NCBI GenBank assembly: GCA_022837635.1
Contig: JALHFY010000001.1
Coordinates: 454,512 to 518,511 of the forward strand
DNA: 64,000 bases
Reading direction: 5' to 3'
From: Candidatus Shapirobacteria bacterium
GTDB lineage: Bacteria > Patescibacteriota > Microgenomatia > UBA12405
The position numbers were made by a program, and so were the translations under genes. Each line of letters begins with the position of its first letter. Within the stretch, counting starts at the first letter, position 1. This document shows, piece by piece, positions 4,974-63,734 of the stretch. Below the pieces are notes generated by a model. The model was not told the DNA's origin, made no database searches, and saw nothing but the letters and a program-made list of their open reading frames with translations.

Positions 4974-5038
4974 ATATTTTGGCTTTATTGCTGACAAATT
5001 CTTGATAATTGGAATTACAGAGATTATGATTTTCTTAT

Positions 5039-5518
5039 ATGCTTAAGAAGATATTATTGGTAGGAGTAGTCGTAAGTTTATTAATGTCACCGAAGGTTTG
5101 GGCAGGTACTTTTAACCTAAAATCAATCAGTGGAGTCGACACTAGTGGTAAACAATTGTCACATTGGTGGTACACAGACAATAGAGCGGTATTTTCAGGA
5201 GAAGCGGTAGCTGGAAGTAGTGTGGAAGTTGAGGTAGATGGTCAAACCAGTAGTACTACTGCCGATGGTGAGGGTAATTGGAGTGCGACAATAGATTTAA
5301 GCGAAGGTGATCATACAGTGAAATTAAGCAGTGGCGGGTCAACGATTAACTTTACCCTAACTACAGGGACAAACAATGTTGATTGGGAAGCAGTGGAAGC
5401 AGGAGAGGGAGAAGCCTTGCCAGCAGCCGGTAATACTTGGCCAGGAATAATTTTGTTGATAGGTGGTTTAGTGGGAATTATGATCGGTGGTAAAATGTGG
5501 CGTGTTTGTAAAGCCTAA
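5039..5518 (+). CDS. Small secreted protein with a C-terminal cell-wall sorting signal. Candidate sortase substrate.
   Basis: Signal peptide MLKKILLVGVVVSLLMSPKVWA. C-terminus ...EALPAAGNTWPGIILLIGGLVGIMIGGKMWRVCKA, i.e. LPxxG-type motif, then hydrophobic helix, then basic tail. Confidence 0.5.
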   Translation: MLKKILLVGVVVSLLMSPKVWAGTFNLKSISGVDTSGKQLSHWWYTDNRAVFSGEAVAGSSVEVEVDGQTSSTTADGEGNWSATIDLSEGDHTVKLSSGGSTINFTLTTGTNNVDWEAVEAGEGEALPAAGNTWPGIILLIGGLVGIMIGGKMWRVCKA

Positions 5519-7696: not shown

Positions 7697-8068
7697 TTAA
7701 TTTATAACCCGATTCAGGATGATGGCAGCAGCCATAGAATCGATGTGTCGGGAATGTTTTTTGGCTGAATAGAGATTTTTCTTAAACAGGTCTTCAGCCT
7801 CAAGAGTGCTAACCGCCTCTTCGACACTCTCTACAGGTAATTTTACCATGAGAGCCAGTTGGTCAATAAATTTTTGAGTTAGCTTAGCTATTTTACCTTC
7901 AGAGATACCGATATAAATTTTACCAATATGATGGTCTTTTATTATAGTTAGTAAATTATTAAAGAGGTGTTGATCATTTTGAAGAGGAGGCAGGGTAAAA
8001 ATAATCCCCTGTTGGCTATAAGCTAAACCAATTCTTTTAGTACCAAAATCAATGCCTAGATAATTCAT
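7697..8068 (-). CDS. ruvX: Putative pre-16S rRNA nuclease / Holliday-junction resolvase-like YqgF (RuvX)
   Basis: MNYLGIDFGTKRIGLAYSQ... RNase H-like fold N-terminus typical of YqgF/RuvX. About 123 aa. Confidence 0.85.
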   Translation of the reverse strand: MNYLGIDFGTKRIGLAYSQQGIIFTLPPLQNDQHLFNNLLTIIKDHHIGKIYIGISEGKIAKLTQKFIDQLALMVKLPVESVEEAVSTLEAEDLFKKNLYSAKKHSRHIDSMAAAIILNRVIN

Positions 8069-56894: not shown

Positions 56895-58307
56895 ATGAAG
56901 AGATTTTATATTAGTACACCTATTTATTATATTAATGCGGAACCAAGTGCAGGTTCGGCTTGTACTACTGTAGCCGCAGATGTGGTGGCCAGACTTCATC
57001 GACAATTAGATGATGAAGTTTTTTTTCTGACCGGAACTGATGAACATGGAGAGAAAGTGGCTCAGGAAGCGGCTAAAGCGCAGTTAACCCCGATTCAATT
57101 TTGTGATTCAATAGCCCCGAAATTTATTCAAGCTTGGAAACTGTTAAACATCAGTCATAACTTTTTTATCAGAACAACAGATCCTCAGCACAAGAAAATT
57201 GTGAGTGAGTTTTTGCAAAAAATATTTGATAAAGGTGATATTTACAAAGATAAATATGAGGGTTGGTACTGTAGTGGTTGTGAAGCTTTTAAGACAGAAA
57301 AAGAACTGGTAGATAATCATTGTCCTTTACATCCTCCCGAAAAAACAGTCTGGAAAAGTGAGGATAATTGGTTTTTTAAGTTGTCAAAATACGTTCCAGA
57401 AATCATCAAGCTGTTAGAAAATAATGAGAGTAATTATATTTTTCCGGAAAGTAAAAGAGTGGAAGTATTGGCTAAATTAAAGGCAGGGGTAAATGATATT
57501 TCAGTTTCGCGGGAAAATGTAGCCTGGGGTATCCCCGCTCCTTGGGATAAAAGTCAAACCATTTATGTGTGGATAGACGCCTTGATTAATTATTATAGTG
57601 CGACTCAATTTTTGGAAAATAAAAGAGAATTCTGGCCAGCAGACTTACATCTTTTAGGTAAAGAAATTTTGTGGTTTCATGCAGTTATTTGGCAGGCAAT
57701 GTTGATGTCAGCCGAGCTGCCTTTACCTAAAAAAATTTATGTGCATGATTTTTACACCATTGACGGTCAAAAAATGAGTAAATCTCTGGGAAATACGATT
57801 CCACCCAAGGAAATGGTGGATTTGTTTGGAGTCGATGGGGCTAGATATTTAATTATCACTTCTTTCCCTAATGACGGTGATGTAGATATTGGTATCGAAC
57901 GTTTTAAGGAAAAATACAACGCTGATTTGGCTAATAATTTAGGAAATTTACTGAGTCGGGTGTGCAAATTAGGTGAAGGATTGGTTGTCCCTGAGTCTCC
58001 AGTCGATAAGGAAAACTTTATTCAATTGGTCAACCAATTGAAATTGAGTGAAGCGGTTGATTGGGTGCTGGAAAATTTTATTGACAAATCTAATAATTTA
58101 CTTAATCAAGTTGAACCATGGAAACTGTCTGTAGATGATTCAAAAAGAGTTGAAGTATTAACAGAGTGTGCCAGTAATTTATTAAAGGCAGCTGATTGTT
58201 TGGAACCAGTGATACCGGAAGCTTCTGAAAAGATTAAAGAGCGATTGAGTGGAAAAATAAAGGTTTTAGAAACAGCTTTGTTTCCCAGAATCAAACAAAA
58301 TGATTGA
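56895..58307 (+). CDS. metG: Methionine--tRNA ligase (short MetRS, no C-terminal tRNA-binding extension)
   Basis: FYISTPIYYINAEPSAG...LTGTDEHGEKV. CSGCEAF...CPLH (zinc knuckle). KMSKSLGN. Confidence 0.9.
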   Translation: MKRFYISTPIYYINAEPSAGSACTTVAADVVARLHRQLDDEVFFLTGTDEHGEKVAQEAAKAQLTPIQFCDSIAPKFIQAWKLLNISHNFFIRTTDPQHKKIVSEFLQKIFDKGDIYKDKYEGWYCSGCEAFKTEKELVDNHCPLHPPEKTVWKSEDNWFFKLSKYVPEIIKLLENNESNYIFPESKRVEVLAKLKAGVNDISVSRENVAWGIPAPWDKSQTIYVWIDALINYYSATQFLENKREFWPADLHLLGKEILWFHAVIWQAMLMSAELPLPKKIYVHDFYTIDGQKMSKSLGNTIPPKEMVDLFGVDGARYLIITSFPNDGDVDIGIERFKEKYNADLANNLGNLLSRVCKLGEGLVVPESPVDKENFIQLVNQLKLSEAVDWVLENFIDKSNNLLNQVEPWKLSVDDSKRVEVLTECASNLLKAADCLEPVIPEASEKIKERLSGKIKVLETALFPRIKQND

Positions 58308-59037
58308 TACTCATGCTCATTTAACATCAAGGTTTGGCCGTAAAAATGGTGATATTGATGGACTTGAATATGTGATTTTGGCAGCCAGTAGTGTAGATGA
58401 CTCAAGAGAAAATATCATTTTGGCGAAAAGCGATAAAAGACTATTGCCTAGTGTGGGGATACATCCGCAAGAAATAAATAAAGAGATTGATACGCAAATA
58501 AATAGTTTGGAAGAATTGCTTAAAAAACATAAAGAAATTGTAGCGGTGGGAGAATGTGGTTTAGAACTTGTAGGTGAGGTTGATAAAAATTTGCAAATAA
58601 AATTTTTTGAAAAACAAATTGAACTAAGCCTTAAATATGATAAAGCCATCATAGTCCATTCCCGAAAAGCGGTAGAAGAAACTCTGGAAATTCTAAAAAA
58701 ATATCAAAATTTAAGAGGAGTAATTCACTGTTACAGCGGTGGTAAAAAAAAGATAAAAAACTTTTTAGGGTTGGGAGAAAATTGGTTTTTTGGAATTGAC
58801 GGTAATGTGACTTATGAACAGGGTGTGGTGGAAGTAGTCAAAAATATTCCTAAAGACAGGTTAGTTTTGGAAACAGATTCGCCTTTTTTGGCGCCTATTC
58901 CCCATCGAGGTGAAGAAAATAAACCGGCTTGGATAAAAAATATTTATGAACAAGTGGCGGAAATCTGGGGAGAGGAATTTAAGAAAACTGAAAAAATCAT
59001 CGATGACAACGCCAAGCGCTTATTTAAGATAATCTGA
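58300..59037 (+). CDS. tatD: TatD-family metal-dependent hydrolase / DNase
   Basis: MIDTHAHL...GECGLE...HSR...HCYSG...ETDSPF. Confidence 0.85.
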   Translation: MIDTHAHLTSRFGRKNGDIDGLEYVILAASSVDDSRENIILAKSDKRLLPSVGIHPQEINKEIDTQINSLEELLKKHKEIVAVGECGLELVGEVDKNLQIKFFEKQIELSLKYDKAIIVHSRKAVEETLEILKKYQNLRGVIHCYSGGKKKIKNFLGLGENWFFGIDGNVTYEQGVVEVVKNIPKDRLVLETDSPFLAPIPHRGEENKPAWIKNIYEQVAEIWGEEFKKTEKIIDDNAKRLFKII

Positions 59038-59259
59038 GAGGATGGCTTCCAGTTCTGATTTAGAAGGATACTGATCGATCAAAACAACTTCGTTATCAAT
59101 TAAGAGGATAGTGTTACCCTGTAAACCTCGGGCGTAAACTTTGTTCATATCCCGAATATATTCAGGATCATCAATTTGAAAACGTTGACAAAGAGAATCT
59201 AAATCAGCAAATAATTTTTTCCCAGGAGGTAGACCACGATCAAAAAGCTGTATTTTCAT
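59020..59259 (-). CDS. Small hypothetical protein (79 aa)
   Basis: ORF only. No motif recognised. Confidence 0.3.
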   Translation of the reverse strand: MKIQLFDRGLPPGKKLFADLDSLCQRFQIDDPEYIRDMNKVYARGLQGNTILLIDNEVVLIDQYPSKSELEAILSDYLK

Positions 59260-59268
59260 AATAAGAAA

Positions 59269-60291
59269 TTATAACTCAAGATTAGCATTGACGTCCAAAG
59301 TGTCGGGGTCAGAAAATTGTTGCTTTTGAGCTTTATAAAAAGCCACTAAAGCAATCATGGCAGCATTATCGGTATTGAGTTCTTTTTTGAAGGGCATGTA
59401 GATAGGTAGAGAATATTTTTTAGCTAAAAGTCTCATTTTTCGGCGTAAAGTTAAGTTTGAAGCAACCCCACCAGAGAGTAAAAGTAATTTTGGTTGAGTT
59501 TTTTGAATAGCCAACTCAAATTTACGAAGTAAAGTAGAAAAAACAGCATTTTGGATTGAGGCGGCGAGATCAGGTAAATTTTTAGCAATTTTGCTTTTAG
59601 GCCAGTCTTTAATCTGGTAATAAAAAGCTGTTTTAAGACCGGAAAAGGAATAGTCAAGGATTTTTTTGTCAGGTAAAGGACTGGGTAAAGTTAAAAAATC
59701 GGGGCGACCGGTTTTAGCCAGACGTTCAATCGCCGGACCACCAGGATAACCTAAACCTATAAGTTTGGCAGATTTATCCAAAGCCTCACCAGCGGCATCA
59801 TCCAGAGTTTCACCAATAATTTGATATTGACCAATATGATGGATAAGTACGATTTTAGTATGACCACCAGAAACAGTCAGACTAAGAGCGGGAAAAGATT
59901 GTGAACGTAGAGGTAGACCACGACGATTTTGTAAAAAATTTGATAAGAGATGGCCTTCGACATGGTTAACACCAATAATTTTTTTCTGGTGTTCTAAAGC
60001 CAAAGACTTGGCAAAATTAAGACCAACACTAAGAGCGATAGCTAAACCGGGACCTTGGGTAACAGCGATAATATCAATATCTTGAATATTTAATTTAGCC
60101 CTATTTAGGGCAGTTTTAACCACCGGTTCGATTCTTTGTTGATGAGCTCTTTTGGCAATATCGGGAACAACTCCACCCCATTGGGCATGTAGATTAACTT
60201 GTGAGGAAATAACATTGCTTAAAATTTTTTGATCAGAAAGAACGGCAGCACAAGTGTCGTCACAACTGGTTTCAATACCAAGGAGATACAT
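59269..60291 (-). CDS. tsaD: tRNA N6-adenosine threonylcarbamoyltransferase TsaD (Kae1/Gcp)
   Basis: MYLLGIETSCDDTCAAVL...GVNHVEGHL... Confidence 0.9.
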   Translation of the reverse strand: MYLLGIETSCDDTCAAVLSDQKILSNVISSQVNLHAQWGGVVPDIAKRAHQQRIEPVVKTALNRAKLNIQDIDIIAVTQGPGLAIALSVGLNFAKSLALEHQKKIIGVNHVEGHLLSNFLQNRRGLPLRSQSFPALSLTVSGGHTKIVLIHHIGQYQIIGETLDDAAGEALDKSAKLIGLGYPGGPAIERLAKTGRPDFLTLPSPLPDKKILDYSFSGLKTAFYYQIKDWPKSKIAKNLPDLAASIQNAVFSTLLRKFELAIQKTQPKLLLLSGGVASNLTLRRKMRLLAKKYSLPIYMPFKKELNTDNAAMIALVAFYKAQKQQFSDPDTLDVNANLEL

Positions 60292-60312
60292 GGTGTTGTA
60301 TTATAGAATAAG

Positions 60313-60903
60313 ATGACTTCAAGAACAAAATATCTTTTACTATCAGCAGTTTTATTTTTATTAAGTATTGCAGGAATGGGAATCTTGTATCTAAGACAAA
60401 CATCCCCAAGCAAGGAAATAGCAGTGGTGGAGCCAACTTTTGCCTTTCCTAGTCCAACACCAAAGATGATGGAGAGTATTATCATTCCCACCAATCAACC
60501 TACTGCTACACCAATTAGTCCTTCGCCAACGCCACCAGCTGATAGTCAGGTTTATGAAAATGAGGATTATAAGTTTAGACTTACTTACAGTAATAATCGC
60601 CGAGTTTACGAGGAAAAAGAAGGACAAGGCTTAAGAGTGACTTTCTATAGCTCTCTAGGAAACATAGCTGTACATATGGGTAAAGATTGGTCTTGGAAGC
60701 ATCCAGAGCGAAAATTAAGCGAAGAGTTTTTGGTGGATAATGAAAAGACTTTTATTTTTGAAAATGAAGAACAAAAAATTATAGATTTTGAGAAAGGAGA
60801 GTATAAATATAGCATTCAGTGTATTCACAAAAATCAAAGCAAAATAAAAGAAGAATGTGAGACGATAGTCAACAGTTGGCAGTTTATGGTTGAGGTAGAG
60901 TAA
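60313..60903 (+). CDS. Hypothetical membrane-anchored secreted protein with a short PT/PS-rich linker
   Basis: Anchor YLLLSAVLFLLSIAGMGILYL. PSPTPKMM...PTATPISPSPTPP. About 110-aa C-terminal domain with 2 Cys. Confidence 0.45.
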   Translation: MTSRTKYLLLSAVLFLLSIAGMGILYLRQTSPSKEIAVVEPTFAFPSPTPKMMESIIIPTNQPTATPISPSPTPPADSQVYENEDYKFRLTYSNNRRVYEEKEGQGLRVTFYSSLGNIAVHMGKDWSWKHPERKLSEEFLVDNEKTFIFENEEQKIIDFEKGEYKYSIQCIHKNQSKIKEECETIVNSWQFMVEVE

Positions 60904-61963
60904 AGGAAATTTGTCGTTGAGTGGGACCTAAGTAATGAAAAAGAATCGGGATGGTGGTGGTTATTTTTTTTAACTTATTGAGGTTTTTTTGACCCATATT
61001 TTCAGGCCATTCTAGGGCATAAATAGATGAACAATTAAAGTGTTCAAAAAAGTGTATTTCTTTGAACTCAAAGTCATTTTTCAAACGATATAAATCAAAG
61101 TGATAAAAGGATTTAAGAGTGGGATGAGAGAGAGAGTAATGATTGTAAATTACAAAGGTGGGAGAGAGAATTTTTTGAGTCACCCCCAGGTTTTTGGCCA
61201 GAGCTCGAGCAAAGACAGTTTTACCACAACCCAAGTCACCGGAAAGCAAAAAAACAATCGGTTTAAGAGGAGAATAATTTTTAATTTTATTGAGAAGATG
61301 CTTGGCAACTTGACTGGTTTCAGTTTCTGAATTGGAAATAATTTGATGATCAGGAGAAAGCAAGATTTGACCAGGGCGAAGAATTTTTAGATCACTTTCA
61401 AGAGCATCAATAACAGTAGAAGGCTTATTTCTAGGTAAAACACCAGCATCAACCACTAAAGAAATCAAAGATTGTTTTTTAAGTGAAAGAGTTTTGAGAA
61501 AAGCGGAAATGGAATAATGAGGCGTTCGACCAGAAAGATTGGCAGAGGTGGCAGTGATAGGTTTTTTAAGGATTTTAAGAAGATCTAAGACTGGTGGAGA
61601 GTTGGGAATACGAATACCTAAAGATTGATTTTCAGCCTCAATACCCCGAGCTAATAGGTTTTTTCCAGGAGAGATGATAGTAAAGGGTCCGGGAAATAAA
61701 TTTTGGTAAAGATCTAAAGTATTTTGATTTAAGTAAGCGTATTTCTGAGCCATATTTACATCAAGCACAGCAATAGAAATGGCTTTACCAGGCCAGCGAT
61801 TTTTGAAGGCTAACAATTTGTTAACTGCAGACTGATTACTGGGGTCAACGGCTAAAATATAAACAGTATCAGAGGGAAAAACAACCAGATTGCCAGCCTG
61901 GATTTCGGCGGCAGTTTGGGTAAGTGCTTTTTGATAATTCGGAAAAAGAGGCAAGATTAACAT
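60884..61963 (-). CDS. Bifunctional fusion: TsaC/YrdC (L-threonylcarbamoyladenylate synthase) N-terminal domain plus TsaE/YjeE P-loop ATPase C-terminal domain
   Basis: N-terminal half: VVFPSDTVYILAVDP, FKNRWPGKAISIAV, TATSANLSGRTP (YrdC motifs). C-terminal half: LSGDLGCGKTVFARALAKNLGV, SPTFVIYNHY, HFDLYRL, ALEWPE (TsaE motifs). Confidence 0.8.
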   Translation of the reverse strand: MLILPLFPNYQKALTQTAAEIQAGNLVVFPSDTVYILAVDPSNQSAVNKLLAFKNRWPGKAISIAVLDVNMAQKYAYLNQNTLDLYQNLFPGPFTIISPGKNLLARGIEAENQSLGIRIPNSPPVLDLLKILKKPITATSANLSGRTPHYSISAFLKTLSLKKQSLISLVVDAGVLPRNKPSTVIDALESDLKILRPGQILLSPDHQIISNSETETSQVAKHLLNKIKNYSPLKPIVFLLSGDLGCGKTVFARALAKNLGVTQKILSPTFVIYNHYSLSHPTLKSFYHFDLYRLKNDFEFKEIHFFEHFNCSSIYALEWPENMGQKNLNKLKKITTTIPILFHYLGPTQRQISFTLPQP

Positions 61964-62008
61964 CGGCTTATTTTATCATTGAAGAGACTCAGATGATAAA
62001 ATGAAGAT

Positions 62009-62425
62009 GTGAAACAAATTTGGGTGATGACGATACTGATATGGTTATTGGTAGTGGGAATACTGAGGGTTTATCCCCTATCTCAGGGTGAAAAATATTT
62101 TACTAGATTGCAAAAGTGGTATTTGGCGGTAGAGAATTCTCAGTGGGAAAAAGCTAAGGTAATGGAAAGAGATTTAAGTAAAGAAGACACGATAGCTTTT
62201 GCTCAGAAAAATGAAAATAGTGAATTACAAAGGAGACTGGCTCAAAGTAAAAGTAAGTTAAATAAAACTGCCGATGATTGGGCGGAGATATCGGTAATTC
62301 TGTATAAATTAGGTCAATATCAGGAATCAGCCGAAGCCGCTGCCGCAGCCTATGAGATAGATCCGATTCGGGAAGATGTGAGCCGACTCTATTTTAGTTC
62401 TCGGGCTTTTCTTCAGAAGCCTTAG
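62009..62425 (+). CDS. Hypothetical membrane-anchored protein with a TPR-like helical region
   Basis: TM MTILIWLLVVGILRV. Helical, Ala/Glu-rich C-terminus. Confidence 0.4.
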   Translation: MKQIWVMTILIWLLVVGILRVYPLSQGEKYFTRLQKWYLAVENSQWEKAKVMERDLSKEDTIAFAQKNENSELQRRLAQSKSKLNKTADDWAEISVILYKLGQYQESAEAAAAAYEIDPIREDVSRLYFSSRAFLQKP

Positions 62426-63095
62426 AATCTTTAGACTGATCTTGATCAGTTCCTTCTTCACCTCCCTCCTCAGATTTTTGAGCGGTAGCTGGAACATCTT
62501 CAGGAGCAACTTCTTCTTCCACAGGTTCTTCTTCAACCTTAGGTTCCTCGATGATAGCAATAACTTGCTCCGGATCAGTTTTAATTTCAATGAGATCTTG
62601 ATCAACTTGAAGGTCAGAAACTGATATTTTTTGACCGATTTCTTCCAGAGAAGAAATGTCCACTTCAATCTTTTCAGGCAAATCAGCCGGCAGAGCTTCA
62701 ATCTCAACTTCATCAGTCACCGGAACCAGAATATTACCGTTTTTAACAGCCGGAGATTCACCAATTAATTCCAAAGGAACATTGGCGACAATTTTTTCTT
62801 TTAAGTTGACTTGATAGCAATCAATATGAATTAAATCGCCTAAAACAGGATGAAATTGAGGATTCTTGAAAATAACTGGATAGGTTTCTTTATCAATATT
62901 GATTTCGACTAGGGTAGATTCACCAGCATGTTCGAAAATTTTGTCCAGCTCCAGAGCCGTAAACTGAACAGAAATAGGAGTCATGGCTTGACCATAAATA
63001 GTAGCTGGGATTTGACCGGCTTGTCGGAGTTTTTTAACTTTACGACCGGTAACAGTTCTGAGGGTACCAGAGAGTTTGGGATTTTCTTTTTTCAT
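62394..63095 (-). CDS. rplY: 50S ribosomal protein L25 / general stress protein Ctc form (with an acidic C-terminal tail)
   Basis: LSGTLRTVTGRKVKKLRQAGQIPATIYGQAMTPISVQF...GDLIHIDCYQVNL. C-terminal EEPVEEEVAPED... Confidence 0.85.
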   Translation of the reverse strand: MKKENPKLSGTLRTVTGRKVKKLRQAGQIPATIYGQAMTPISVQFTALELDKIFEHAGESTLVEINIDKETYPVIFKNPQFHPVLGDLIHIDCYQVNLKEKIVANVPLELIGESPAVKNGNILVPVTDEVEIEALPADLPEKIEVDISSLEEIGQKISVSDLQVDQDLIEIKTDPEQVIAIIEEPKVEEEPVEEEVAPEDVPATAQKSEEGGEEGTDQDQSKDSKASEEKPEN

Positions 63096-63390
63096 TTTAT
63101 GACTTTAGTTTGGCGCCTTTGATAATTAACGACTTCGCCACAACTAAGGACAGAGGTAGTATATCATTTCTTCTCAGCCCAGGGGGGATAAGGTTGGTCA
63201 TAATAGGCTCGAGTGGATGAAGTACGACTGTTTCTGAGAATCATTCTGTGTGGATCTGGTTCAACAGAAAATTGAGCGGAAGGAAGAGATGGGAGAGAAG
63301 AAAGTTTTTCTGGTCGACAAAAAAGATTGTTTAAGGTTTTAATTCCATTAAAAATAGGGCGAATGATAGGGAGATGTTCTCGTTTCATTG

Positions 63391-63464
63391 TAGGCATGCA
63401 TGGATTCGAACCATGGACCACCGACTTATAAGATCGGTGCTCTAACCAACTGAGCTACATGCCC
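63391..63464 (-). tRNA. tRNA with anticodon UAU (reads AUA; Ile). No encoded CCA. G1-U72 pair.
   Basis: Minus strand: GGGCATG-TA-GCTC-AGTTGGTTA-GAGC-A-CCGAT-CTTATAA-GTCGG-TGGTC-CATGG-TTCGAAT-CCATG-CATGCCT-A. Cloverleaf folds by hand. Loop CTTATAA puts TAT at positions 34-36. Confidence 0.7.
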
Positions 63465-63491
63465 AAAATTTCGTCTTGGCAGGTTTCGAGG

Positions 63492-63565
63492 TGGTACAGT
63501 AGCAAGGGCGGGACTTGAACCCGCGACCCCGACGTTATGAATGTCGTGCTCTAACCAACTGAGCT
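63492..63565 (-). tRNA. tRNA with anticodon CAU (elongator Met or Ile2-type). No encoded CCA. G1-U72 pair.
   Basis: GGCAAGG-TA-GCTC-AGTTGGTTA-GAGC-A-CGACA-TTCATAA-CGTCG-GGGTC-GCGGG-TTCAAGT-CCCGC-CCTTGCT-A. Confidence 0.7.
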
Positions 63566-63624
63566 ACCTTGCCTTGATTAAAGTTACGGCATAGCAAGCT
63601 GACCATAACTTAGGGAATTATATC

Positions 63625-63653
63625 AACAAAAAAGTCGTCAAGTTAATGACGAC
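63625..63653 (-). terminator. Rho-independent terminator downstream of the first-transcribed tRNA (minus strand)
   Basis: Minus-strand read: GTCGTCAttaactTGACGAC followed by TTTTTTTGTTG. 7-bp GC-containing stem, 6-nt loop, U-tract. Confidence 0.65.
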
Positions 63654-63661
63654 CTCTTTGT

Positions 63662-63734
63662 TGGTTGCGGGGCTGGGAGTTGAACCCAGCCTGTGAGATT
63701 ATGAGCCTCACGTGCAGCCGTACACTACCCCGCA
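63662..63734 (-). tRNA. tRNA with anticodon CAU and genomically encoded 3' CCA (Met, fMet or Ile2-type)
   Basis: TGCGGGG-TA-GTGT-ACGGCT-GCAC-G-TGAGG-CTCATAA-TCTCA-CAGG-CTGGG-TTCAACT-CCCAG-CCCCGCA-A-CCA. Confidence 0.65.

What the first reader, a model, noticed from the sequence alone, without database searches (positions are those of the whole stretch)
60884..61963. TsaC(YrdC)-TsaE(YjeE) fusion protein next to tsaD
Seen in sequence: the 359-aa ORF has the YrdC/TsaC motifs in its N-terminal about 190 aa (FPSDTVYILAVDP, K..R.PGKAISIAV, TSANLSGRTP). Its C-terminal about 150 aa has the TsaE motifs (GDLGCGKTVFARALAKNLG, SPTFVIYNHY, HFDLYRL, EW).

In most bacteria TsaC and TsaE are separate proteins acting at different steps of t6A37 synthesis: TC-AMP formation, then ATPase-driven turnover of the TsaBDE complex (established). 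A covalent fusion would physically link step 1 to the TsaD-containing transferase complex. No tsaB is visible in the window (inference: a possibly altered complex).
Basis: partly seen in the sequence, partly recalled or inferred. Interest (0 to 1): 0.55.

Follow-up and report, generated by a model that had tools for sequence, protein, structure and literature searches.

The report
Fused TsaC–TsaE tRNA-modification enzyme

Summary
Window 60884..61963 (minus strand) is one uninterrupted 359-aa ORF. Residues 21-198 match the TsaC/YrdC threonylcarbamoyl-AMP synthase models and residues 211-329 match the TsaE ATPase models, both above curated cut-offs. About 7-12 residues join the two domains.

It is not an assembly artefact. 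The identical protein sits on 8 independent contigs. The 120 closest database relatives and 135 of the 150 best 50%-identity cluster representatives have the same architecture. The catalytic motifs of both domains are almost invariant down to 28% identity.

tsaD lies just downstream on the same strand in nearly every related locus. In distant relatives it abuts or overlaps the fusion gene. In the window's clade a conserved opposite-strand gene sits between them. One relative has the reverse order, TsaE-TsaC.

No paper in the searched library and no NCBIfam model describes this fusion, and sources annotate it only as TsaC.

TsaB is absent from the window and from all fusion-locus flanks, but whole genomes could not be scanned. 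Other CPR-like contigs encode a roughly 100-aa "mini-TsaB" that is easy to overlook.

Verdict: a genuine, widespread, uncharacterised fusion of known enzymes, of moderate interest. Tethered hand-over of TC-AMP to TsaD is inferred, not shown.

The parts
60884..61963 (-). tsaCE: a single 359-aa ORF encoding the TsaC-TsaE fusion (stop codon at 60884-60886)
   Evidence: ORF list and sequence. Both Pfam and NCBIfam domain models match above their cut-offs. The identical protein is on 8 independent contigs. 120 of 120 closest homologues carry both domains.
61370..61903 (-). TsaC/YrdC domain (aa 21-198), with K54-x-R56 at 61796-61804 and T139-S-A-N142 at 61538-61549
   Evidence: PF01300 E=3.5e-41 and TIGR00057 at 140 bits, above its 123-bit cut-off. 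Among 121 diverse fused representatives, K54 is kept in 120, T139 and R118 in all, and S140 and N142 in 113 of the 122 aligned sequences. Foldseek TM-scores are 0.86 to 1k7j and 0.83 to E. coli YrdC 1hru. No SUA5 C-terminal domain was hit.
61334..61375 (-). Short inter-domain linker (aa 197-210, PGQILLSPDHQIIS)
   Evidence: It is the only segment of the AlphaFold2 model with pLDDT below 50 (aa 197-203). The model's pTM is 0.61 against a mean pLDDT of 85. The median gap between the two domain envelopes is about 7 aa in 135 fused representatives.
60887..61333 (-). TsaE ATPase domain (aa 211-359): P-loop GDLGCGKT at 61217-61240, SPTF at 61154-61165, HFDLYR at 61085-61102, EW at 61007-61012
   Evidence: PF02367 E=6e-29 and TIGR00150 at 88.5 bits, above its 60.1-bit cut-off. 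G245, G247, K248, T249, S267, H288, D290, E318 and W319 are invariant in all 122 aligned sequences. Foldseek TM-scores are 0.78 to H. influenzae YjeE 1htw, 0.73 to B. subtilis YdiB 5np9 and 0.70 to T. maritima TsaE in the TsaB2D2E2 complex 6n9a_E.
59269..60291 (-). tsaD (340 aa), the threonylcarbamoyl transferase that uses the TsaC product
   Evidence: TIGR03723 at 381 bits against a 296-bit cut-off, and PF00814 E=1e-87. It lies downstream of the fusion gene on the same strand in nearly every fusion locus long enough to show it.
60313..60903 (+). Context only: a conserved opposite-strand gene between tsaCE and tsaD, encoding a 196-aa protein with an N-terminal membrane/signal segment, no Pfam match, and a convergent 20-bp overlap with tsaCE
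   Evidence: Found at the same position in 14 related loci with a conserved C-terminal domain. It is absent from the distant fusion loci, where tsaD abuts tsaCE.

Best explanation
Shown:
- The gene encodes one polypeptide. It has a complete, catalytically intact TsaC (YrdC-type, without a SUA5 domain) threonylcarbamoyl-AMP synthase domain, then a linker of about 7-12 residues, then a complete, catalytically intact TsaE P-loop ATPase domain.
- The architecture is ancient and stable in a large clade of Patescibacteria/CPR. Named members are Shapirobacteria, 'Microgenomates group' and 'Patescibacteria group'.
- The gene is syntenic with tsaD.

Established for the separate proteins:
- TsaC makes the short-lived TC-AMP.
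- TsaD, with TsaB, transfers the threonylcarbamoyl group to A37 of ANN-decoding tRNAs.
- ATP-bound TsaE docks in the same cavity of TsaBD as the tRNA anticodon arm, and its ATP hydrolysis resets TsaD for the next turnover (PMC6614819, PMC11648230).
- How TC-AMP travels from TsaC to TsaD is unknown, and proximity has been proposed (PMC10484737).

Inferred:
- Each time the TsaE domain docks on TsaD to reset it, the tethered TsaC domain is held within a few nanometres of the TsaD active site.
- Freshly made TC-AMP is therefore delivered at high local concentration while the tRNA site is still occupied by TsaE.
- ATP hydrolysis then releases the whole TsaCE protein and clears the cavity for the next tRNA.
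- The fusion also fixes a 1:1 stoichiometry and saves a promoter in a very small genome.
For: - Domain identity.
- Not an artefact: the identical protein is on 8 contigs from different sequencing runs with the same neighbours. L001 carries a 90% identical copy in Shapirobacteria UBA1420.
- Breadth: the 120 best of 4497 hits all carry PF01300 plus PF02367. Of the 150 best 50%-identity representatives, 135 are TsaC-TsaE.
- Both active sites are under purifying selection down to 28% identity.
- Functional link to TsaD: tsaD lies immediately downstream on the same strand in nearly every fusion locus long enough to show it. In the distant loci L028, L030, L031, L034, L036 and L038 the gap is 0-120 bp or the genes overlap.
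- Independent fusion in the opposite order: P0265 is TsaE-TsaC and is followed directly by a TsaB-like gene. This argues that what is selected is proximity of the two activities, not one particular geometry.
- Mechanistic premises from the literature: TsaE and tRNA compete for one cavity and ATP hydrolysis resets the cycle (PMC6614819; PMC11648230). The TC-AMP delivery route is unknown and proximity has been proposed (PMC10484737).
Against: - No experiment or complex model here shows channelling.
- The AlphaFold2 model gives no confident inter-domain packing: the linker has pLDDT below 50 and pTM is 0.61. The domains may be simple beads on a string.
- That both gene orders exist also fits plain co-expression.
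- In the published T. maritima cycle, TC-AMP is drawn as arriving at a tRNA-bound TsaD (Figure 1 legend of PMC6614819). That timing differs from the one proposed here.
- In the window's own clade, tsaCE and tsaD are separated by an opposite-strand gene, so they are probably not co-transcribed.
- One close relative has a free-standing TsaE (P0256 on L090), so the fusion is dispensable in at least one lineage.
- The TsaB partner was not found.
Confidence: 0.6

Rival explanations
1. Plain economy fusion. The two domains work exactly as free TsaC and TsaE do, and TC-AMP still diffuses freely. The fusion only guarantees co-expression and stoichiometry and saves regulatory DNA in a streamlined CPR genome.
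For: - The linker is of low confidence and there is no confident inter-domain interface (pTM 0.61).
- Both domain orders occur.
- A free-standing TsaE exists in a close relative.
- YrdC domains are also fused to unrelated partners: CTP_transf_like in P0266 and a SelB winged helix in P0252.
Against: - The linker is consistently very short (median about 7 aa in 135 representatives).
- The fusion has persisted down to about 28% identity.
- It stays glued to tsaD in the genome.
- Two independent fusion events joined the same pair of activities.
- TC-AMP is short-lived, so proximity should matter (PMC11648230; PMC10484737).
Confidence: 0.3
2. The lineage has lost TsaB, and the fused TsaCE works with a TsaD homodimer, as Qri7 does, so the architecture of the transferase complex is altered.
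For: - No full-length or mini TsaB is in the 64-kb window.
- None is in about 7 kb beyond the window's right end (L099), nor in the +/-10 kb flanks of about 35 fusion loci.
- In canonical bacteria tsaB usually clusters with tsaE and tsaD, as in L061, which reads tsaE-tsaB-tsaD-tsaC.
Against: - Absence from the flanks is weak evidence: only a fraction of one genome's worth of DNA was examined, and much of it is syntenic.
- TsaE is retained with all of its TsaBD-interface motifs invariant (SPTF, HxD, EW). In solved complexes TsaE sits on the TsaB-TsaD interface (PMC6614819).
- Other CPR-like contigs keep a roughly 100-aa mini-TsaB, sometimes unlinked to tsaD.
- The reverse-order fusion is followed directly by such a gene.
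Confidence: 0.15
3. Artefact or misassignment. Either a frameshift or chimeric assembly joined two genes, or the C-terminal half is another P-loop NTPase, or the N-terminal half is a YciO-like paralogue that does not make TC-AMP.
For: There are weak secondary hits to KAP_NTPase and AAA (about 20 bits). The structurally closest YrdC-fold chain is YciO 1k7j.
Against: - The identical ORF occurs in 8 independent assemblies and the architecture is conserved in hundreds of proteins.
- TsaE models score 88-101 bits, above their curated cut-offs, and the TsaE-specific motifs are invariant.
- TIGR00057 scores above its equivalog cut-off, the KxR and SxN motifs are present, and the gene forms an operon with tsaD in distant relatives.
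Confidence: 0.03

Closest known systems
Free-standing bacterial TsaC (YrdC, E. coli 1hru/2mx1) and TsaE (YjeE/YdiB; 1htw, 5np9, and T. maritima TsaE in TsaB2D2E2, 6n9a)
   Same: Each half is a full-length, motif-complete member of the respective family. Profiles score above their cut-offs and fold TM-scores are 0.7-0.86. The pathway context with tsaD is the same.
   Different: Here the two are one polypeptide joined by a linker of about 7-12 aa. In the model organisms they are separate proteins, and no stable TsaC-TsaBDE complex has been described in the papers read (PMC10484737, PMC6614819).
TsaC2/Sua5 (YrdC domain plus C-terminal SUA5 domain; T. maritima 9d3h, P. abyssi 6f87, S. tokodaii 2eqa)
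   Same: An N-terminal YrdC catalytic domain is followed, after a short linker, by an alpha/beta C-terminal domain of about 130-150 aa. These chains are the best whole-chain Foldseek hits by E-value.
   Different: The C-terminal domain here is a TsaE P-loop ATPase and not a SUA5 domain: there is no PF03481 hit and the whole-chain rmsd is about 13 A.
YrdC-Kae1 fusions: TobZ, HypF and Pandoravirus TsaN (TsaD-TsaC-SUA5-TcdA, 8ide)
   Same: All covalently couple the adenylate-forming YrdC-type domain to the machinery that consumes the adenylate. In TobZ and HypF the fusion creates a channel for the intermediate (PMC10484737).
   Different: In those proteins the partner is the Kae1/TsaD-like transferase itself. 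Here the partner is the regulatory ATPase TsaE, and TsaD stays a separate protein, so any coupling to TsaD must be transient and ATP-gated.
Kae1-Bud32 fusion of Archaea (MJ1130/PRPK)
   Same: It is a natural fusion of a t6A catalytic subunit with the ATPase/kinase-fold regulator of the same pathway, used historically as evidence of functional linkage (PMC4615747).
   Different: Different proteins are fused (the transferase plus Bud32, not the synthase plus TsaE), and it belongs to the KEOPS system of a different domain of life.

Membership tests
TsaC/Sua5/YrdC L-threonylcarbamoyladenylate synthase (TIGR00057 / PF01300) | Profile match above the curated equivalog cut-off | tested here: met
   TIGR00057 scores 140.4 bits against 123.2, and PF01300 141 bits against 25.1.
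TsaC/Sua5/YrdC L-threonylcarbamoyladenylate synthase (TIGR00057 / PF01300) | Conserved KxR and SxN substrate/ATP-binding motifs (the role of these motifs is from my own knowledge of the family) | tested here: met
   K54-N-R56 and S140-A-N142 are present. Among 121 fused representatives K54 is kept in 120, and S140 and N142 in 113 of the 122 aligned sequences.
TsaC/Sua5/YrdC L-threonylcarbamoyladenylate synthase (TIGR00057 / PF01300) | Makes TC-AMP from threonine, bicarbonate and ATP | not testable with these tools
   Needs an enzyme assay.
TsaE (YjeE) ATPase subunit type 1 (TIGR00150 / PF02367) | Profile match above the curated cut-off, and better than to other P-loop families | tested here: met
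   TIGR00150 scores 88.5 bits against 60.1 and PF02367 scores 101 bits. KAP_NTPase and AAA reach only about 20 bits.
TsaE (YjeE) ATPase subunit type 1 (TIGR00150 / PF02367) | Walker A GxxxxGK[ST], the SPTF switch I motif, the HxDxYR switch II/Walker B region and the C-terminal EW | tested here: met
   All are present and invariant in all 122 aligned sequences. [quoted passage not shown]
TsaE (YjeE) ATPase subunit type 1 (TIGR00150 / PF02367) | TsaE fold | tested here: met
   The C-terminal domain of the AlphaFold2 model matches 1htw (TM 0.78), 5np9 (0.73) and 6n9a_E (0.70).
TsaE (YjeE) ATPase subunit type 1 (TIGR00150 / PF02367) | ATPase activated by binding to TsaBD, and required for multi-turnover | not testable with these tools
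   Needs biochemistry.
Bacterial four-protein t6A system (TsaB, TsaC, TsaD, TsaE) | TsaD transferase present | tested here: met
   59269..60291 (minus strand), TIGR03723 at 381 bits against 296.
Bacterial four-protein t6A system (TsaB, TsaC, TsaD, TsaE) | TsaB dimerisation subunit present | tested here: inconclusive
   None is in the window or in the fusion-locus flanks, using YeaZ, a TsaB from L061, jackhmmer and a 127-sequence mini-TsaB HMM. The rest of the genome could not be searched.
TsaC2/Sua5 two-domain synthases | C-terminal SUA5 domain | tested here: not met
   There is no SUA5 Pfam hit, and the C-terminal domain is TsaE.
TobZ/HypF/TsaN-type YrdC-Kae1 fusions | YrdC-like domain and Kae1/TsaD-like domain in one chain | tested here: not met
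   There is no PF00814 domain in the 359-aa protein, and TsaD is a separate gene.

The most novel reading that the evidence does not exclude
The TsaC-TsaE fusion, in either order, would be a natural 'Rosetta stone' showing that TC-AMP is loaded into TsaD while TsaE is docked, that is, during the ATP-driven reset and before tRNA binds. This would be a gated hand-off of the labile intermediate. In these CPR lineages the hand-off may operate on a pared-down transferase core: TsaD with only a roughly 100-aa mini-TsaB, or with no TsaB at all.
Probability: 0.25. Interest if true: 0.65.

Novelty: new variant of a known kind. Interest (0 to 1): 0.45.

Why it matters
- An open point in bacterial t6A synthesis is how the short-lived TC-AMP gets from TsaC to TsaD, and at what stage of the TsaE-driven cycle. 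A conserved natural tether between TsaC and TsaE gives a directly testable system for this: compare the fused protein with the split domains, and solve or model a TsaCE-TsaD(-TsaB) complex.
- The practical consequence is annotation. Sources name these proteins only 'L-threonylcarbamoyladenylate synthase', and NCBIfam has no model for the fusion. Automated pathway reconstructions will therefore report tsaE as missing from a large CPR clade.
- Together with the roughly 100-aa mini-TsaB seen in passing, this shows how an essential, universal tRNA-modification machine is compacted in ultra-small genomes.

Tried and rejected
1. Frameshift or assembly artefact: rejected.
2. C-terminal half is a different P-loop family: rejected.
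4. Candidate TsaB surrogates next to the fusion or to tsaD were looked at and rejected as TsaB:
   - family F6 upstream of the fusion in many loci is HD-domain-like by its sequence motifs, not profile-tested;
   - F42 looks like an Rrf2-type regulator and F34 like SufC, both also read from sequence only;
   - the 123-aa window protein at 7697..8068 is RuvX;
   - the 79-aa ORF after tsaD has no Pfam match.
5. Linking TsaB to fusion-bearing genomes by matching 'longest_contig' lengths between the TsaB hits and the fusion hits: no match, so uninformative.
6. Taxon names for the distant fused representatives and for the mini-TsaBs through cluster look-ups: none were returned.
7. Literature: six searches plus reading of the main t6A reviews and structure papers found no description of a TsaC-TsaE fusion. 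The only 'TsaE-TsaC' text hits come from an archaeal KEOPS study that I did not open.
8. Promoter and terminator scan of 58900-62200: counts were no higher than in shuffled sequence. The only item of note is a promoter-like site whose -10 element ends 7 nt before the tsaCE ATG.
9. I considered predicting a concatenated TsaD+TsaCE chain, but the tool returns no coordinates or inter-domain error estimates, so it could not have settled the geometry. It was not run.
Full report
**1. The observation**

Window 60884..61963 on the minus strand is a single 359-aa ORF with an ATG start, a TAA stop and no internal stop.

Profile searches identify both halves:
- Pfam PF01300 (Sua5_yciO_yrdC) covers aa 21-198 with E=3.5e-41.
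- Pfam PF02367 (TsaE) covers aa 211-329 with E=6e-29.
- NCBIfam TIGR00057 (L-threonylcarbamoyladenylate synthase) scores 140.4 bits against a cut-off of 123.2.
- NCBIfam TIGR00150 (TsaE type 1) scores 88.5 bits against a cut-off of 60.1.
- Other P-loop families reach only about 20 bits, and no SUA5 domain is hit.

No PDB chain covers both halves. The N-terminal half matches YrdC-fold proteins and Sua5 chains, and the C-terminal half matches TsaE chains.

An AlphaFold2 model built on 50 homologues has a mean pLDDT of 85. It shows two well-folded domains, and only residues 197-203 fall below pLDDT 50. Its pTM is 0.61, so the relative orientation of the domains is not defined.

Foldseek against the PDB gives these TM-scores:
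- N-terminal domain: 0.86 to 1k7j and 0.83 to E. coli YrdC 1hru.
- C-terminal domain: 0.78 to YjeE 1htw, 0.73 to YdiB 5np9 and 0.70 to T. maritima TsaE in the TsaB2D2E2 complex 6n9a_E.

The true junction lies at about 61334-61375.

**2. It is not an artefact, and it is not rare**

- The exact 359-aa protein is called on 8 independent contigs from different sequencing runs, with the same neighbours.
- A 90% identical copy lies in Candidatus Shapirobacteria UBA1420 (L001). Copies at 51-82% identity lie in other MAG contigs, some labelled Shapirobacteria and some labelled 'uncultured Gammaproteobacteria'.
- In the 5.8-billion-protein collection the 120 best of 4497 hits all carry both Pfam domains and are 343-375 aa long. 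Where a source names the organism it is mostly Shapirobacteria, 'Microgenomates group' or 'Patescibacteria group'; one hit (P0024) is labelled Candidatus Methanoperedens. The product is always named simply as the TsaC enzyme.
- In the library of 50%-identity representatives, 153 proteins score below E=1e-30.
- Of the best 150 representatives, 135 are TsaC-TsaE, 13 are TsaC only, one is TsaE only and one is TsaE-TsaC. The median gap between the two domain envelopes is about 7 residues.
- In 121 full-length fused representatives that are only 28-51% identical to the query, the residues that define both active sites are essentially invariant:
  - TsaC domain: K54 in 120 of the 121 representatives, R118 and T139 in all, S140 and N142 in 113 of the 122 aligned sequences.
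  - TsaE domain: G245, G247, K248, T249, S267, H288, D290, E318 and W319 in all 122 aligned sequences.

Both enzymatic halves are therefore under purifying selection.

**3. Surroundings**

The window has 38% GC and a CPR-like gene set. Around the fusion, on the plus strand, the order is:

| Coordinates | Strand | Feature |
|---|---|---|
| 56895-58307 | + | metG |
| 58300-59037 | + | tatD |
| 59020-59259 | - | 79-aa ORF, no Pfam match |
| 59269-60291 | - | tsaD |
| 60313-60903 | + | conserved 196-aa membrane/secreted protein |
| 60884-61963 | - | tsaCE |
| 62009-62425 | + | 138-aa protein with a weak TPR_2 match below the Pfam cut-off |
| 62394-63095 | - | ribosomal protein L25 |
| 63390-63734 | - | three tRNA genes |

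tsaD is canonical: TIGR03723 scores 381 bits against a cut-off of 296.

Across 36 fusion loci from genomes and metagenomes, tsaD lies downstream on the same strand in nearly every locus long enough to show it.
- In the more distant fusion loci (35-45% identity; L027-L038) tsaD follows with a gap of 0-120 bp or overlaps the fusion gene. That is an operon.
- In the window's clade, a conserved opposite-strand gene is inserted between the two.

**4. TsaB**

No TsaB-like ORF, full-length or short, is in the window. None is in the 7 kb beyond its right end (L099), and none is in any fusion-locus flank. This is weak evidence about the genome. The collection scans were capped, and whole genomes could not be read.

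The search did turn up something relevant.
- The single reverse-order fusion (P0265; TsaE aa 6-141, YrdC aa 155-330) is followed, with a 4-bp overlap, by a 105-aa ORF. This ORF carries the TsaB hallmark GPGSFIGLRVG and ends at a genuine stop.
- That ORF seeds a family of PF00814 proteins of about 85-139 aa. A profile search finds 7349 hits at E<=1e-3, and the best 120 are all 94-139 aa long. JGI and NCBI name several of them TsaB.
- These mini-TsaBs sit next to free-standing tsaE, and sometimes tsaC, in CPR-like contigs.
- They keep the N-terminal subdomain and a C-terminal P-x-Y, and lack the second subdomain.

A small, unlinked tsaB is therefore a realistic possibility for the window's genome, and the 'altered complex' inference is not established.

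**5. How it most likely works**

Established for the separate proteins:
- TsaC makes the short-lived TC-AMP.
- TsaD, with TsaB, transfers the threonylcarbamoyl group to A37.
- ATP-bound TsaE occupies the same cavity at the TsaB-TsaD interface as the tRNA anticodon arm. Its ATP hydrolysis resets TsaD for the next turnover (PMC6614819; PMC11648230).
- How TC-AMP reaches TsaD is not known, and spatial proximity through transient contacts has been suggested (PMC10484737).

Shown here:
- Both domains are intact.
- The linker is very short.
- The fusion is old and syntenic with tsaD.
- The same two activities have been fused at least twice, in opposite orders.

Inferred: docking of the TsaE domain brings the tethered TsaC domain next to the TsaD active site during the reset phase. 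TC-AMP is then loaded at high local concentration before TsaE-driven release frees the cavity for tRNA.

The main rival is a neutral economy fusion (stoichiometry and co-expression) with no kinetic coupling. The undefined domain orientation, the existence of both orders and one free-standing TsaE in a close relative (L090) are compatible with that rival.

**6. Comparison with what is known**

- Each half is an ordinary member of its family. The combination resembles TsaC2/Sua5 only in layout: a YrdC domain followed by a C-terminal alpha/beta domain.
- It resembles TobZ, HypF and TsaN only in principle, as coupling of the adenylate-forming domain to its consumer. Here the partner is the regulatory ATPase, not the Kae1/TsaD transferase.
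- The archaeal Kae1-Bud32 fusion is the closest precedent for fusing a t6A catalytic subunit to its ATPase-type regulator (PMC4615747).
- The t6A reviews and structure papers I read (PMC4615747, PMC9654439, PMC10484737, PMC11648230) list TsaC/HemK, Kae1-Bud32, TobZ, HypF and TsaN fusions but no TsaC-TsaE fusion. Targeted full-text searches found none either.
- NCBIfam has no dedicated model for the fusion.
- The architecture is certainly present in public databases under a TsaC-only name, so it is catalogued but, as far as I could find, undescribed.

**7. Verdict**

This is a genuine, widespread and so far uncharacterised bifunctional TsaC-TsaE protein of Microgenomates-type CPR bacteria: a new variant of a known system. 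Interest is moderate at 0.45. It is not a new enzymology, but it is a natural construct that bears on an open mechanistic question, and it is a systematic annotation gap. The claim of a TsaB-less complex is not supported by the evidence obtainable here.

Noticed in passing
L089 2364-2681; L091/L092 6001-6324; L093 6001-6396; L094/L095 6001-6345; L096-L098 about 5001-5310: A large family of 'mini-TsaB' proteins of about 85-139 aa, against about 230 aa for E. coli YeaZ (my recollection) and 239 aa for the TsaB of L061. They keep the N-terminal ASKHA subdomain with the GPGSFTGLR motif and a C-terminal P-x-Y, and lack the second subdomain. A profile search gave 7349 hits at E<=1e-3, and the best 120 were all 94-139 aa long. 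Several are named TsaB by NCBI and JGI. They sit next to free-standing tsaE in CPR-like contigs. I found no paper discussing them.
   Followed up: partly
L089 1345-2367 (protein P0265): A reverse-order TsaE-TsaC fusion of 340 aa (TsaE aa 6-141, YrdC aa 155-330), followed directly by a mini-TsaB. This is an independent fusion of the same two activities.
   Followed up: partly
L090 9640-10152 (protein P0256): A free-standing 170-aa TsaE that is 52% identical to the window's TsaE domain. Its locus shares the window's synteny (L25, tsaD nearby) but has no TsaC domain. It is an apparent fission or loss, and the next ORF (177 aa) has no Pfam match.
   Followed up: partly
window 60313-60903 (+): A conserved 196-aa gene on the opposite strand, wedged between tsaCE and tsaD. 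It overlaps the tsaCE 3' end by 20 bp and starts 21 bp from the tsaD start codon. It encodes an N-terminal hydrophobic segment, a Pro/Thr-rich linker and a conserved Cys-containing C-terminal domain, with no Pfam match. It is present in 14 related loci and absent from the distant fusion loci.
   Followed up: partly
window 59020-59259 (-): A 79-aa ORF 10 bp downstream of tsaD, conserved in 5 loci of the window's subclade, with no Pfam match. Its function is unknown.
   Followed up: no
window 63390-63734 (-): Three tRNA genes, Ile(UAU), Met(CAU) and Met(CAU), lie about 1.4 kb from tsaCE. All have U36-A37-A38, which makes them expected t6A substrates. A tRNA-Ile with a UAU anticodon is unusual for bacteria; this last point is from my own knowledge.
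   Followed up: no
window 61970-61999 (-): A promoter-like site (TTATCA, 18-nt spacer, TG-extended TAAAAT) ends 7 nt before the tsaCE ATG, and no Shine-Dalgarno sequence is visible. The mRNA may be leaderless or nearly so. This is a consensus match only, and site counts in the region were no higher than in shuffled sequence.
   Followed up: no
L006, L012-L016, L018, L021, L022, L033 (immediately upstream of the fusion gene): A roughly 196-222-aa protein that looks HD-domain-like from its sequence motifs (not profile-tested) lies directly upstream of tsaCE on the same strand in many related loci. It is absent at that position in the window.
   Followed up: no
L006, L014, L027, L030, L031 and others (tsaD genes): TsaD is 380-396 aa in several fusion-bearing relatives, against 340 aa in the window. 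The alignments break after about residue 68, which suggests a lineage-specific insertion in the N-terminal subdomain.
   Followed up: no
L002, L003, L005; protein P0024: Contigs carrying close homologues of this CPR gene cluster are labelled 'uncultured Gammaproteobacteria' (binchicken MAGs) or 'Candidatus Methanoperedens' in the public records. These are probably taxonomy or binning errors.
   Followed up: no
proteins P0266 and P0252 (representative search): Other YrdC-domain fusions exist among the relatives: cytidylyltransferase-like + YrdC (342 aa) and YrdC + SelB winged helix (362 aa).
   Followed up: no
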